Source of the DNA: a virus
Taxonomy: Duplodnaviria > Heunggongvirae > Uroviricota > Caudoviricetes
IMG/VR virus record: IMGVR_UViG_3300029417_000071
Direction: 5' to 3' (one strand)
DNA: 22,529 nucleotides
The notes under the pieces were generated by a model that was not told the origin of the DNA, did no database searches, and was given only the letters and a program-made list of their open reading frames with translations. The position numbers and the translations under genes are program-made. Below are positions 18,585-22,529 of the stretch, piece after piece. The first letter of the stretch is position 1, and each line of letters starts with the position of its first letter.

Positions 18585-19337
18585 TTATCTCGTCACCTTC
18601 CTCAATTGCGCTTCCGCGTATGCTTCTTCCTGCCAGCACTTTGTTACCAGTTTATCAATGACGTCCGCATACCCCTTATACCACTGATAATCGGTCAGGT
18701 CTGGTACCAGCTTCTGGACATGACGTCGTGCCAGCGTGGTCGGTAAACGACTAAATCGGTTTCCATTACAACGCCCACAAATCTTATATACCGGTACGCC
18801 ATGAAACCGGGTTCTTTTTTCATCCAGAACAATCCCTTTACCCTTACACCCTCTGCACGCTGTGCTGACTTCGCCCTTACCATGGCAATGCTGACATAGT
18901 TCCTTCACCCATTCTTCCTTGATTACAGATTCCCCGCGTCTGTAGTGTTTCACCACTTCGCGCAATACATTATAAAATCCCGTACCTGAACAATGCTCAC
19001 AGCGAGCCTTACTTGCCGCAGACCTGGAGTAATCAGCAAAGGCAAAATTCACAAGGTAAGGAATAATCTGTAACCGGATTTCTTCACTCAATTTGTTCAA
19101 TGTCGGGTTATCCAGTGCCATCGCGTAATTTAGCAGGCCTTCAATCGCAAACTGAGGGTCCTGAACACCAACTTTTGCCAGAAATAAGGCCAACCCAAGT
19201 GGTGCTTTCGACTGCACCATCCCCTGCGCTGCCATTACATCCGTAATTGTTAAACAACCGGTGCCTGTCGCTGGAGCGTCATCGCTCAATTTTGGAGATT
19301 TTGGGGAGTAATATTTTGGTAAGGCTTCAAGGTTCAT
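18585..19337 (-). CDS. quuQ: late antiterminator Q
   Basis: 250 aa; Cys-rich zinc-binding region CEHCSGTGF...CQHCHGKGE...CRGCKGKG...CGRCNGN; position immediately upstream of PR' and the lysis genes. Confidence 0.85.
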   Translation of the reverse strand: MNLEALPKYYSPKSPKLSDDAPATGTGCLTITDVMAAQGMVQSKAPLGLALFLAKVGVQDPQFAIEGLLNYAMALDNPTLNKLSEEIRLQIIPYLVNFAFADYSRSAASKARCEHCSGTGFYNVLREVVKHYRRGESVIKEEWVKELCQHCHGKGEVSTACRGCKGKGIVLDEKRTRFHGVPVYKICGRCNGNRFSRLPTTLARRHVQKLVPDLTDYQWYKGYADVIDKLVTKCWQEEAYAEAQLRKVTR

Positions 19338-19350
19338 GCTCGTTCTCCAC

Positions 19351-20400
19351 TTACGCCAGTACGCCAGTTGCCAGCGCGCGATCGATAAAACGAAATATCA
19401 GCTCCAGTTGGGAGCCATACTTCTCTTCAAATGCCACTGTATCCGTATGCAGCTCGTTGTGATGCTTTCTGCACAAAGGCAACACAAAGAGATCATGTGC
19501 TTTTGTTCCCATTCCGCCCTGCCCGTGACCAATCAGATGATGCGGATCGTCGGCTGGCATACCGCAGCAAGCACACGGCTGTGTCTTAACCCAACGAGTG
19601 TATTTCTCCTTAACCCAGCGGCGACGTTTAGGCAGCTTCATGAAAGATTCCGGAGACTCTGGATCAACGGTGATGCTTACCACCGTCTTTTCCTGTGGTG
19701 GTTTTTGTTGCTGGTGGGCGTAAGGCAACGGTGCAAGATTTTCTGTGCGTTGTTTCAATATGCTGGTGGCGGTCTGCTCTCCCTGTACGATGTCGCTTTC
19801 GCGGTACACCGAGCAGATTTTTTCCGCTGGTAATCCCAGCGAACGACGCGATACAGCCTCAGGTAGTGCATCCACCACCTGATTGCAGACCGCCCACCAG
19901 GATAATTCAGCCAAAGATAATTCCCGCTCCTGCGTACCGCTTATTGCGTGACGGATGACGTCAATCACCCATGCTGTCAGATTTTGTTGAGCAAGCAGCT
20001 CCAGTGATTCCGATGTCTGGTCACGCAGTTGGTTGTCGCAGTGCCAGCACAACACCATTGCGCCGGTACCATAACGGTGAATGACTGTTTCAGTGTGATG
20101 GTAATCGCCATTAGGCCACTGGCAGGATGTAACATGACGTAATAGCCAGTCAGACAATGCGCCAACGCCGCCAGTAGCACGAATCACCCGTTCGTTACTA
20201 AAAAACGGCAGCAATGTTTTGTCTTCTGCCAGCGGCTGGCGAACGGCAGGAACGACTCCGGATGGCAGATTTCGCATGCTTTTTGGTTCCGGTTCCACCA
20301 GCACTCGAGGATTATGAAATATCTGTATGGATTCACGGCCCGGCTTAAGGACCACCAGCCCAAGCTCAGGCACCAGAACAGGTCTAAGTAATACCCGCAC
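19351..20400 (-). CDS. ydfU: DUF968 protein YdfU-like with C-terminal HNH-like Cys/His motif
   Basis: Track ORF 19351..20439; GTG at 20400 has a perfect SD GGAGGT 5 nt upstream that overlaps the stop of the upstream gene, giving 349 aa. C-terminus QPCACCGMPADDPHHLIGHGQGG...PLCRKHHNELH. Confidence 0.75.
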   Translation of the reverse strand: MRVLLRPVLVPELGLVVLKPGRESIQIFHNPRVLVEPEPKSMRNLPSGVVPAVRQPLAEDKTLLPFFSNERVIRATGGVGALSDWLLRHVTSCQWPNGDYHHTETVIHRYGTGAMVLCWHCDNQLRDQTSESLELLAQQNLTAWVIDVIRHAISGTQERELSLAELSWWAVCNQVVDALPEAVSRRSLGLPAEKICSVYRESDIVQGEQTATSILKQRTENLAPLPYAHQQQKPPQEKTVVSITVDPESPESFMKLPKRRRWVKEKYTRWVKTQPCACCGMPADDPHHLIGHGQGGMGTKAHDLFVLPLCRKHHNELHTDTVAFEEKYGSQLELIFRFIDRALATGVLA

Positions 20401-20401
20401 G

Positions 20402-20680
20402 TTACCTCCAGATCCGTTGCTGGAAAGTGCGGGACGCACGTGGTGGGCGTTCGGAATAAGGCAGCCTGACAGAGATTATCCAGTGCCGATAGTCGAGACT
20501 GAGAGCTTTCTTAACCTCGAACCCGCGCCTGCGGTAAGAATGAATCAGCCATTCGGCCTGTTCTGCAGTGCATGGAGGGTGCTGGAACCATTCAGACTTG
20601 AATGCGTGAGAATACCGCCCGTGCGTGCAGGCAAGAACGGGCGAATTATCAGAATTGTAATATTTTACGTTGCGTGCCAT
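20402..20680 (-). CDS. hypothetical Cys/His-containing protein (92 aa), translationally coupled to ydfU
   Basis: MARNVKYYNSDNSPVLACTHGRYSHAFKSEWFQHPPCTAEQ...; SD GGAG upstream; stop TAA sits inside the ydfU SD. Confidence 0.6.
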   Translation of the reverse strand: MARNVKYYNSDNSPVLACTHGRYSHAFKSEWFQHPPCTAEQAEWLIHSYRRRGFEVKKALSLDYRHWIISVRLPYSERPPRASRTFQQRIWR

Positions 20681-20746
20681 CGGTTTTCTCCGGTGGCACG
20701 GTGTTACTCAGCGGGAGTTCAGCCCCGCGCAAGATTGTAGATGAGT

Positions 20747-20998
20747 TTATTCTTCTGCAAAAGCAGAAAAGCCAGCTTTTATTCCGATCTCTTTCAATGC
20801 CTGTAATGAAGTGACAAACTCACCTTCGCGCAAGATAAATCCGTCCGTGACCCGAGCATCCACAAAATTAATTAACGCAGCCCCATTCTTTCGCAAACAC
20901 ATAATGCGGTAATGACTAACAAGATTTCCATTTTCAACGCACACAGCATAGAGGCCATCTTCACAAAAAATTTTACGCAGTTCTTCGATGTTCATCAT
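20747..20998 (-). CDS. hypothetical protein (83 aa), possibly Rem-like by size and position
   Basis: MMNIEELRKIFCEDGLYAVCVENGNLVSHYRIMCLRKNGAALINFVDARV...; located between hokD and ydfU as rem is in Qin, from memory. Confidence 0.5.
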   Translation of the reverse strand: MMNIEELRKIFCEDGLYAVCVENGNLVSHYRIMCLRKNGAALINFVDARVTDGFILREGEFVTSLQALKEIGIKAGFSAFAEE

Positions 20999-21117
20999 CA
21001 GAATCCTTCCGGATAATTAGCTCTCCCCTTTAAGGGACCATCCCTCTTATCCCTGCGCGCTACTTAAGTATTTTTGATTCTATTCCGGCACCGTCCAGAT
21101 CTTCAAACGCGTTGAAA

Positions 21118-21146
21118 ATAAAAACAAAAACCCGCCGAAGCGGGTT
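21118..21146 (-). terminator. intrinsic terminator after hokD
   Basis: Minus strand reads CCCGCTTCGGCGGG followed by TTTTTGTTTTT. Confidence 0.6.
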
Positions 21147-22044: not shown

Positions 22045-22503
22045 ATGGACGATATTAATATCAGCCTCGACGAACTTAACACTATTGATTTATCCCCCTT
22101 AATCCAGAGTAAGCTGCCAGTTACCTGCTTTGATATCACAAAGTATCTTTCTAGCCTAGGTGATGGAAGAGCGGAGATAAGACTGCTAACCCATATTTGC
22201 GGTTTTCACTTTCGTCCCGAAAATCCACAGGTACCATTTGGTCCGTGCTTTCAAAGCAGCCAAGGTAGATCTGCAATTCCGGATGACATTAACGGGTTGT
22301 CGCTGGAGGTACTTTCTCAATTTTGCCCGACGATAGAGCTACCCGAACTTCAAGCTCGTATTGCTGATACACTTTGGGTTCGTAAAATTGGTGGAATCCG
22401 TTTTCCTTTGCTGGCAGTCCGTGCTTATTATGCGTCCAGTATAGCTATTATGACTGAACCGCCCCGGGAATCCTGGAGACTAAACTTCCTGAGAAAGAGG
22501 TAA
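22045..22503 (+). CDS. hypothetical protein (152 aa), first gene of an unknown plus-strand operon
   Basis: MDDINISLDELNTIDLSPLIQSKLPVTCFDITKYLSSLGDGRAEIRLL...; SD AAGGTG; preceded by an AT-rich promoter-like region; no family recognised. Confidence 0.55.
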   Translation: MDDINISLDELNTIDLSPLIQSKLPVTCFDITKYLSSLGDGRAEIRLLTHICGFHFRPENPQVPFGPCFQSSQGRSAIPDDINGLSLEVLSQFCPTIELPELQARIADTLWVRKIGGIRFPLLAVRAYYASSIAIMTEPPRESWRLNFLRKR

Positions 22504-22508
22504 ACAGG

Positions 22509-22529
22509 ATGACTAAAAATACTCGTTTT
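22509..22529 (+). CDS. 5' end of a downstream gene (MTKNTRF...), truncated by the window edge
   Basis: ATG at 22509 follows SD AAGAGG and lies 5 nt after the stop of the 152 aa gene, suggesting an operon. Confidence 0.3.

What the first reader, a model, noticed from the sequence alone, without database searches (positions are those of the whole stretch)
19351..20680. Translationally coupled pair: Cys/His 92 aa protein and DUF968 YdfU with an HNH-like C-terminus
The stop codon of the 92 aa gene lies inside the GGAGGT SD of a GTG-initiated ydfU, which implies coupled expression. YdfU ends in a CxCC...HH...H...C...HH...H arrangement reminiscent of HNH/zinc-finger nucleases. The 92 aa protein has its own C-x-H...H...H...C cluster. 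Both lie in the nin-like region just upstream of Q, and as far as I know both are functionally uncharacterised.
Basis: partly seen in the sequence, partly recalled or inferred. Interest (0 to 1): 0.5.

Follow-up and report, generated by a model that had tools for sequence, protein, structure and literature searches.

The report
Coupled small protein and HNH nuclease
Two tightly packed genes of a Qin-like prophage of E. coli are real and probably translated as a unit; the larger one (YdfU) is an already-classified HNH-type nuclease, and the small one is an uncharacterised basic protein with no conserved zinc site, so the pair is ordinary for this part of a lambdoid phage.

Summary
The sequence observation holds. 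A 92-aa gene (20402-20680, minus strand) ends in TGG AGG TAA. One base later comes the GTG start of ydfU (19351-20400), so the GGAGGT Shine-Dalgarno overlaps the stop codon. This junction is identical in 8 of 8 divergent E. coli loci and 79 of 80 viral contigs.

The GTG start is right. The first 42 residues are conserved, and distant homologues align from residue 1 with ATG starts.

YdfU's C-terminus is an HNH (His-Me finger) motif. It scores 256 bits against Pfam DUF968 and matches PHROG 96 'HNH endonuclease'. The catalytic and zinc ligands do not vary among the enterobacterial homologues. A 2017 classification of the superfamily already lists YdfU by name.

The Cys/His cluster of the 92-aa protein is not conserved, and no zinc or nuclease fold is supported. 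The protein is a 26-residue variable extension, a confident beta-alpha-beta-beta core and a basic tail. It belongs to an uncharacterised family of about 66 residues (PHROG 1212).

Members of that family open the nuclease block upstream of Q (YdfU, YbcO, NinG, RusA). However, YdfU homologues often lack this partner.

Verdict: real and ordinary, mostly already known. The small protein's function remains open.

The parts
20402..20680 (-). 92-aa protein gene (ATG 20680, TAA 20404-20402). It has a variable N-terminal extension (codons 1-26, 20603-20680), a beta-alpha-beta-beta core (codons 27-75, 20456-20602) and a basic tail PPRASRTFQQRIWR (codons 76-92, 20405-20455).
   Evidence: ORF. PGAP CDS WP_001309521. 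PHROG 1212 at E 1.7e-35 over residues 27-92. dN/dS 0.12-0.31 in frame. AF2 core pLDDT above 90, residues 1-26 below 50.
20688..20691 (-). GGAG Shine-Dalgarno of the 92-aa gene, 7 nt before its ATG
   Evidence: Read from the sequence.
20404..20409 (-). GGAGGT Shine-Dalgarno of ydfU, made of codons W91 and R92 plus the first base of the TAA stop of the small gene
   Evidence: Invariant in all junction variants. In other clades the small gene ends TGG GGG TGA, which is also SD-like, 2 nt before the next start.
20398..20400 (-). GTG start codon of ydfU, one base after the stop of the small gene
   Evidence: PGAP start. Residues 1-42 are conserved. Homologues at 48-55% identity align from residue 1 with ATG starts.
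20394..20433 (-). Predicted RNA hairpin (-18.6 kcal/mol). Codons 83-87 of the small gene pair with the GGAGG and with the GUG start of ydfU.
   Evidence: Present in the MFE and centroid structures. MFE in 13 of 14 junction variants. Energy. No compensatory changes, and the energy is not better than shuffles (z -0.64), so it remains a prediction.
19351..20400 (-). ydfU, 349 aa, DUF968 family protein
   Evidence: Pfam PF06147 at 1.8e-76 over residues 160-346. PHROG 96 'HNH endonuclease' at 6.4e-170 over the full length. PGAP 'ydfU'.
19447..19575 (-). HNH / His-Me finger core of YdfU, residues 276-318. The zinc knuckles are C276-x2-C279 and C310-x2-H313 (Cys in most homologues). The core also holds H287, H288, K300, D303 and H318.
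20032..20124 (-). Second conserved Cys/His site in the N-terminal domain of YdfU (C93, H101, C118, C121, D122, N123)
   Evidence: Invariant columns. Position 101 is Cys in Vibrio phage Her and P1 PdcB, and position 121 is His in Yersinia. AF2 places a beta hairpin 105-118 and a helix there with pLDDT 70-90.
18585..19337 (-). Q antiterminator (ydfT), the next gene downstream (context)
   Evidence: Pfam Antiterm at 7.7e-55. PGAP annotation.
20747..20998 (-). rem, the gene upstream of the small gene (context)
   Evidence: PGAP annotation.

Best explanation
These are two genuine early-right ('nin region') genes of a Qin-like lambdoid prophage. They are transcribed together with rem and Q and are translated as a coupled pair.

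Coupling. A ribosome finishing the 92-aa gene stops on TAA inside the GGAGGT that serves ydfU. It would also melt a predicted hairpin that otherwise covers that Shine-Dalgarno and the weak GTG start. YdfU synthesis would then follow translation of the small gene. The anatomy and its conservation are shown; the dependence is inferred.

YdfU. It is a zinc-stabilised HNH / His-Me finger nuclease of the DUF968 family, with H288 as the likely general base and H318 as a metal ligand. An N-terminal domain carries a second structural Cys/His site. YdfU occupies the slot that NinG/Rap or YbcO plus RusA fill in other lambdoid phages. Its most likely job is therefore to cut branched or recombination/replication intermediates of phage DNA before late gene expression (inferred from family and position).

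The 92-aa protein. It is not a metal-binding protein. It is a member of an uncharacterised family of about 66 residues (PHROG 1212). It has a small beta-alpha-beta-beta core, a very basic conserved C-terminal tail (PR..R..QQR.W) and, in E. coli, an extra weakly constrained N-terminal arm. Members of this family recurrently open the nuclease block upstream of Q. It most likely acts as a nucleic-acid-binding or partner-binding accessory of that recombination module (inferred, weak).
For: Anatomy and conservation of the junction.

GTG start.

Hairpin.

YdfU as an HNH nuclease:
- DUF968 scores 256 bits against a cut-off of 27.8. There are sub-threshold hits to HNHc_6 and RecA_dep_nuc.
- PHROG 96 match.
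- Invariant C276, C279, H287, H288, K300, D303, C310 and H318.
- The motif aligns to YbcO 3g27.
- Literature: PMC5714182 and PMC4118853.

Position next to RusA and Q in many phages.

Small protein:
- Family and its limits.
- Fold.
- Purifying selection.
- pI 10.2, tail pI 12.
- The pairing with YdfU-like genes recurs in lineages where both partners have diverged (small protein 41-44% identical, YdfU 48-55%).
- Elsewhere it precedes YbcO, NinG, RusA or an Rv2179c-like exonuclease.
Against: - No biochemical data exist for YdfU or for any DUF968 protein. YdfU is still listed as uncharacterised (PMC11551758).
- The P1 homologue PdcB is dispensable and of unknown function.
- The SD-to-GTG spacing is short (4 nt after GGAGG).
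- The hairpin has no covariation support, and its energy is not unusual.
- The small protein has no recognisable functional domain and no structural neighbour.
- In some phages the small protein is followed by non-nuclease genes such as YfdP, a PerC-like gene or unknown ORFs.
- Tight packing of genes is the rule in nin regions, so adjacency alone says little.
Confidence: 0.6

Rival explanations
1. The two genes are functionally independent. They are neighbours only because nin-region genes are packed end to end and lambdoid phages reshuffle modules at gene boundaries. The coupling merely economises on ribosome binding sites.
For: YdfU homologues follow KilA-N regulators, RusA, a LexA-like gene, a deoxyribosyltransferase-like gene or PdcA instead, often with the same overlap or 1-nt spacing. 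Homologues of the small protein precede YfdP, a PerC-like gene, unknown ORFs or an exonuclease.
Against: The small-gene/YdfU adjacency persists in at least four lineages while both proteins diverge to about 41-55% identity. In phage genomes, Qin-type small genes and Qin-type ydfU occur in equal numbers, 20 records each. Whether they are the same 20 records was not cross-checked. The gene that follows the small gene is a nuclease in most of the loci sampled.
Confidence: 0.3
2. The 92-aa protein is an inhibitor (an immunity or antitoxin-like partner) that keeps the YdfU nuclease harmless until it is needed. The gene order and coupling would resemble those of a type II toxin-antitoxin module.
For: The small gene comes first and is translationally coupled to a nuclease gene. 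The region is rich in addiction modules such as hokD, and relBE in K-12. The two partners diverge together.
Against: Many full-length YdfU homologues have no such partner. The same small family precedes unrelated nucleases and non-nucleases. The small protein is basic (pI 10.2), whereas known nuclease inhibitors that mimic DNA are acidic (general knowledge). No PADLOC hit.
Confidence: 0.1
3. YdfU is a defence, exclusion or anti-defence nuclease of the prophage rather than a recombination enzyme.
For: HNH nucleases are common effectors of defence systems; Cap5 and McrA are among the structural hits. The gene is kept in most E. coli genomes: 4925 of 5426 have a match.
Against: No PADLOC match. 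The position is conserved inside the early-right operon next to RusA and Q, where recombination functions sit. The high prevalence simply follows the prevalence of lambdoid prophages.
Confidence: 0.08
4. One reading: the 92-aa protein is a Cys/His metal-binding protein, possibly itself nuclease-related.
For: C18, H20, H25, H34 and C37 are present in this copy. There is a weak single-sequence match to the active-site region of plant T2 RNases at E 0.09.
Confidence: 0.03

Closest known systems
YbcO of prophage DLP12 (DUF1364, PDB 3g27) with its neighbours ybcN-ninE-ybcO-rusA-quuD
   Same: His-Me finger nuclease of the same published group (group 7, PMC5714182). It shares the motif H..G..G.GTK..DL...C..CH.E. 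It sits in the same place, just before RusA and Q. In mEp237, phiES15 and Klebsiella phages, the homologue of the small protein lies directly upstream of a YbcO gene.
   Different: YbcO has 96 residues, the nuclease domain only. YdfU has 349 residues, with an extra N-terminal Cys/His domain and a long linker. Sequence similarity is marginal (E 0.39 with the profile).
Lambda NinG / Rap, the branch-specific endonuclease
   Same: It is an HNH-superfamily nuclease of the nin region upstream of Q (PMC5714182). In 58 of 80 loci of the mEp237/Gifsy clade, the small-protein homologue is immediately followed by NinG.
   Different: It belongs to a different Pfam family (PF05766), with no detectable sequence similarity to YdfU outside the motif. 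Rap activity has been shown experimentally; YdfU activity has not.
Phage P1 PdcB (and, more distantly, P1 Ref, the RecA-dependent HNH nuclease, PDB 3plw)
   Different: PdcB lacks the residues equivalent to H314 and H318. It follows pdcA, which is not related to the 92-aa protein (PHROG 3345). The Ref family score of 18.7 is below its cut-off of 26.9, so YdfU is not a Ref family member.
PHROG 1212, a family of about 66 residues (mEp237 gp51, Gifsy-2 STM1021.1n, N15 Orf QD1, PY54 ORF47)
   Same: The 92-aa protein matches it over residues 27-92 at E 1.7e-35. The conserved W-F...Y-R..G...W.VSV.LP...PR..R..QQR.W pattern is shared. The position in the nin region is the same.
   Different: The E. coli Qin-type members carry an extra 24-26 residue N-terminal arm that is variable (dN/dS about 0.5) and predicted to be disordered. 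No function is known for any member.

Membership tests
Pfam DUF968 (PF06147), for YdfU | Score above the family's gathering threshold | tested here: met
   256.4 bits against a cut-off of 27.8, over residues 160-346 and the full model 1-171.
His-Me finger / HNH nuclease superfamily, for the YdfU C-terminus | Catalytic His at the end of the first strand (the HH or DH motif) | tested here: met
   D285-P-H287-H288 is invariant in 29 homologues down to 45% identity. It aligns with the AH of YbcO.
His-Me finger / HNH nuclease superfamily, for the YdfU C-terminus | Treble-clef zinc site made of two CxxC-type knuckles that flank the beta-beta-alpha unit | tested here: met
   C276-x2-C279 and C310-x2-[C/H]313 are present. 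C276, C279 and C310 are invariant. Zinc binding itself was not measured.
His-Me finger / HNH nuclease superfamily, for the YdfU C-terminus | Metal-ligand His or Asn on the helix | tested here: met
   H314 is nearly invariant and H318 invariant in enterobacterial homologues. Both are replaced in P1 PdcB.
His-Me finger / HNH nuclease superfamily, for the YdfU C-terminus | Beta-beta-alpha fold | tested here: inconclusive
His-Me finger / HNH nuclease superfamily, for the YdfU C-terminus | Metal-dependent nuclease activity | not testable with these tools
   No experimental report was found.
RecA-dependent nuclease Ref (PF16786) | Score above the gathering threshold | tested here: not met
   18.7 bits against a cut-off of 26.9.
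HNHc_6 (PF16784) | Score above the gathering threshold | tested here: not met
   25.7 bits against a cut-off of 26.6, which is borderline. The SfIV homologue reaches 26.9.
Orf / NinB recombination mediator, proposed for the N-terminal part of Gram-positive DUF968 proteins (PMC4118853) | Detectable similarity to NinB, or to DUF1367 Orf-like proteins | tested here: not met
PHROG 1212, for the 92-aa protein | Significant match to the family profile over its whole length | tested here: met
   E 1.7e-35, with residues 27-92 matching profile positions 1-66 of 66. A profile search of 1.84 billion proteins finds 73 clusters, mostly 65-70 aa.
Zinc-binding small protein, for the 92-aa protein | Four conserved Cys/His ligands | tested here: not met
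   C18, H20 and H25 vary within E. coli. H34 and C37 are not conserved in the family. Residues 1-26 are predicted to be disordered.
RNase T2, for the 92-aa protein | CAS I and CAS II active-site motifs in a domain of about 200 residues | tested here: not met
   There is only a CAS II-like stretch at E 0.09. The hit is lost with the family profile. The protein is too short, and no structural match was found.
Translationally coupled gene pair | The upstream stop lies within a few bases of the downstream start, with the SD inside the upstream ORF | tested here: met
   The junction reads TGG AGG TAA C GTG. It is identical in 87 of 88 loci examined.
Translationally coupled gene pair | Downstream translation depends on upstream translation | not testable with these tools
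   Only a predicted hairpin that masks the SD and the GUG start supports this.
Known anti-phage defence or toxin-antitoxin systems | Match to a PADLOC model | tested here: not met
   No hit for YdfU, the 92-aa protein or Rem.

The most novel reading that the evidence does not exclude
The PHROG 1212 small protein would be a dedicated, portable partner of the nin-region recombination nucleases (YdfU, YbcO, NinG/Rap, RusA). It could be a targeting or regulatory subunit that docks through its conserved basic C-terminal tail ending in an invariant Trp. The terminal Trp and Gly/Arg codons would have been co-opted as the ribosome binding site of whichever nuclease follows.
Probability: 0.2. Interest if true: 0.5.

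Novelty: new member of a known kind. Interest (0 to 1): 0.25.

Why it matters
Copies of this pair are found in most E. coli genomes: 4925 of 5426 complete genomes have a match, often several per genome. Even so, neither protein has been studied, and the 92-aa gene is missing from the K-12 list of uncharacterised genes.

Showing what YdfU cuts would fill a gap in how lambdoid phages other than lambda process recombination intermediates. It would also show whether the small protein modulates that activity. The result would be incremental rather than surprising. The nuclease class is already assigned in the literature, and coupled genes are normal here.

Tried and rejected
1. T2 RNase lead for the 92-aa protein. 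The single-sequence PDB hit had E 0.09. It was not reproduced with the family profile or by fold search.
2. A zinc site in the 92-aa protein. Rejected on conservation.
3. The longer ydfU ORF from GTG 20439 (362 aa). That start codon is absent in other loci. Database proteins with N-terminal extensions (P0128, P0154) look like gene-caller artefacts.
4. An ATG 20277 start for ydfU. Rejected because residues 1-42 are conserved and distant homologues align from residue 1.
5. The N-terminal Cys/His domain of YdfU as a duplicate of the HNH domain. hhalign gives a probability of about 1%.
6. YdfU N-terminus as an Orf/NinB or DUF1367 homologue. No similarity.
7. Similarity of the small protein to NinG, suggested by a shared weak PHROG 4916 hit. 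BLASTP and hhalign are negative.
8. P1 PdcA as a relative of the small protein. It belongs to a different PHROG.
9. Defence-system membership. No PADLOC hits.
11. One database protein (P0122) fuses the two ORFs through a 13-nt deletion. It is a singleton, so it was not used as evidence.
12. A profile-based locus search with the diverse alignment failed for lack of a conserved stretch.

Full report
**What is there**

The window is 100% identical over this stretch to the chromosome of E. coli strain 118UI and about 99% identical to K-12 derivatives. It is a Qin-like lambdoid prophage.

On the minus strand the order is hokD, rem (20747-20998), a 92-aa ORF (20402-20680), ydfU (19351-20400) and the Q antiterminator ydfT (18585-19337). 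Head and tail genes lie further left.

**The junction**

Read on the minus strand, the small gene ends ...CAA CGG ATC TGG AGG TAA. One C follows, and then GTG CGG GTA TTA CTT opens ydfU. GGAGGT (20409-20404) is therefore built from the last two sense codons and the first base of the stop codon. The spacing to GTG is short, 4 nt after GGAGG.

- The 16-nt core of this junction is identical in eight E. coli loci whose flanks differ by up to about 16%, and in 79 of 80 IMG/VR viral contigs that carry the small gene.
- Across 14 distinct junction variants, a 28-nt stretch from ATC to CTT is invariant apart from one base in one variant (L098), although codons on both sides vary at synonymous sites.
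- RNA folding puts the GGAGG and the GUG in a 14-bp hairpin. The opposite arm is codons 83-87 of the small gene (20394-20433, -18.6 kcal/mol). The same hairpin is the minimum-energy fold in 13 of 14 variants.
- The few changes in the stem are C-to-U changes opposite G. There are no compensatory pairs, and the energy is not better than that of shuffled sequence (z -0.64). The hairpin therefore remains a prediction.

This arrangement is what translational coupling looks like. Whether YdfU synthesis actually depends on the upstream ribosome was not testable here.

**The start of ydfU**

The ORF finder extends ydfU to a GTG at 20439, but that codon is missing in the other loci. The downstream ATG at 20277 (M43) is also not the start:

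- Residues 1-42 are conserved as protein while their codons vary.
- Homologues at 48-55% identity from metagenomic contigs align from residue 1 to residue 1, start with ATG and overlap their own upstream small gene.

**YdfU**

- Pfam gives DUF968 at 1.8e-76 for residues 160-346, and just-sub-threshold hits to HNHc_6 and to the Ref family of RecA-dependent nucleases.
- PHROG 96, 'HNH endonuclease', matches the full length at 6.4e-170.
- In an alignment of 29 homologues down to 45% identity, these residues are invariant: C276, C279, D285, H287, H288, K300, D303, C310 and H318. Position 313 is Cys or His. That is the two-knuckle zinc site plus the catalytic His and the metal-ligand His of an HNH motif.
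- The family profile finds only one solved structure, YbcO (3g27), aligned exactly on this motif but at a marginal E of 0.39.

None of this is new. The 2017 classification of the His-Me finger superfamily puts DUF968 and DUF1364 together as group 7, names YdfU of prophage Qin, notes RusA and Q as neighbours and proposes a recombination role (PMC5714182). A 2014 paper had already described the HNH zinc-finger tail of DUF968 proteins (PMC4118853). No experiment on YdfU was found, and it is still listed among the uncharacterised genes of K-12.

Two side observations on YdfU:

- Residues about 55-190 are the best-modelled part. They carry a second conserved site: C93, H101, C118 and C121, followed by invariant D122 and N123. 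Position 101 becomes Cys in Vibrio phage Her and P1 PdcB, and position 121 becomes His in Yersinia. Such swaps are typical of a structural zinc site. A profile comparison gives no support for this being a copy of the C-terminal HNH unit.
- Phage P1 PdcB is a full-length homologue. It lies just before the late activator Lpa. It is dispensable and of unknown function.

**The 92-aa protein**

It has no Pfam, NCBIfam or PADLOC match. It matches PHROG 1212 (unknown function), but only over residues 27-92. Close relatives are confined to Escherichia and Shigella and are 90-92 residues long. A profile search of 1.84 billion representative proteins finds just 73 clusters, most of them 65-70 residues.

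The protein is thus a 66-residue family core with an E. coli-specific N-terminal arm. The arm evolves fast (dN/dS about 0.5, against about 0.1 for the core) and is modelled as disordered. The core is a confident strand-helix-strand-strand unit (pLDDT above 90), followed by a basic tail.

C18, H20 and H25 vary among E. coli copies, and H34 and C37 are replaced in the wider family. What is conserved is F32, Y49, L73-P74, the PR..R..QQR.W tail and the near-terminal Trp.

**Is it a pair?**

For:
- Every Qin-type small gene examined is followed by ydfU.
- Phage genomes hold 20 records of each type. Whether these are the same 20 records was not cross-checked.
- Three further lineages have a small gene only 41-44% identical to this one, followed, overlapping or within 4 nt, by a YdfU-like gene 48-55% identical.

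Against:
- Full-length YdfU homologues in SfIV, KpF5, YeP1, EPP-1, Vibrio phage Her and P1 have quite different upstream genes.
- The small family is found in front of other genes. These include YbcO plus RusA (mEp237, phiES15, a Klebsiella phage), NinG (Gifsy-2, GF-2; 58 of 80 loci of that clade) and RusA followed by YdfU (Citrobacter phage Chris1). They also include an Rv2179c-like exonuclease (N15/PY54 type), YfdP, and a PerC-like gene followed by a Ref-like HNH and RusA.

The common thread is that the small gene tends to open the block of recombination nucleases just upstream of Q. In several clades its last codons (TGG GGG TGA or TGG AGG TAA) double as the ribosome binding site of the next gene. 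That is suggestive of a shared role in DNA processing, but it is also what positional conservation in a mosaic region would produce.

**Conclusion**

The HNH reading of YdfU is right but already published. The metal-cluster reading of the small protein is wrong. Coupling is plausible but ordinary for a nin region.

The most likely mechanism is a coupled pair in which YdfU is a zinc-stabilised HNH nuclease acting on phage recombination or replication intermediates, in the role Rap or YbcO plays elsewhere. The small basic protein would be an accessory of that module.

The only reading with some novelty is that this small family is a portable partner of several unrelated nin-region nucleases. I put that at about one in five.

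Noticed in passing
window 20032-20124 (minus strand; YdfU residues 93-123): There is a second conserved Cys/His site in the N-terminal domain of YdfU: C93, H101, C118 and C121, then invariant D122 and N123. His/Cys swaps occur at two ligand positions in distant homologues. This is probably a structural zinc site, and it is not mentioned in the papers read here.
   Followed up: partly
L019 2405-3448 (phage P1 pdcB): P1 PdcB is a full-length homologue of YdfU (26% identity, DUF968). It lies immediately upstream of the late promoter activator lpa, mirroring YdfU's place upstream of Q. It lacks the His residues equivalent to H314 and H318. Published screens report it as non-essential.
   Followed up: partly
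window 20394-20433 (minus strand): A predicted 14-bp hairpin pairs the end of the small ORF with the Shine-Dalgarno and GUG start of ydfU. It is conserved in 13 of 14 junction variants but has no compensatory changes.
   Followed up: yes
window 20402-20680: The 92-aa gene is called by PGAP (WP_001309521 here, WP_012304870 in K-12 derivatives). However, no gene appears between ydfU and rem in the 2024 list of uncharacterised K-12 genes, so the reference K-12 annotation appears to lack it.
   Followed up: partly
protein P0122 (database, 438 aa): One deposited E. coli protein is an in-frame fusion of the 92-aa protein and YdfU, created by a 13-nt deletion across the junction. It is a singleton, so it could be a mutation or an assembly error.
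   Followed up: partly
window 22045-22529 (+ strand) compared with L002: In this strain the relBE toxin-antitoxin genes that follow hokD in K-12 Qin are replaced by an oppositely oriented DUF4209 gene.
   Followed up: no
window 21129-21146 and 21077-21106 (minus strand): A terminator-like hairpin with a T run lies downstream of hokD. A sigma-70-like promoter match follows it just upstream of rem, and a second promoter-like match lies at 20734-20761 upstream of the small gene. The total of six promoter-like matches in the scanned region is not above the shuffled expectation.
   Followed up: no
L014 1124-1939 and L016 1141-1950: In SfIV and Yersinia phage YeP1, the gene coupled upstream of the YdfU homologue is a KilA-N domain protein of about 270 aa (PHROG 129, 'transcriptional regulator') in place of the small protein.
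   Followed up: partly
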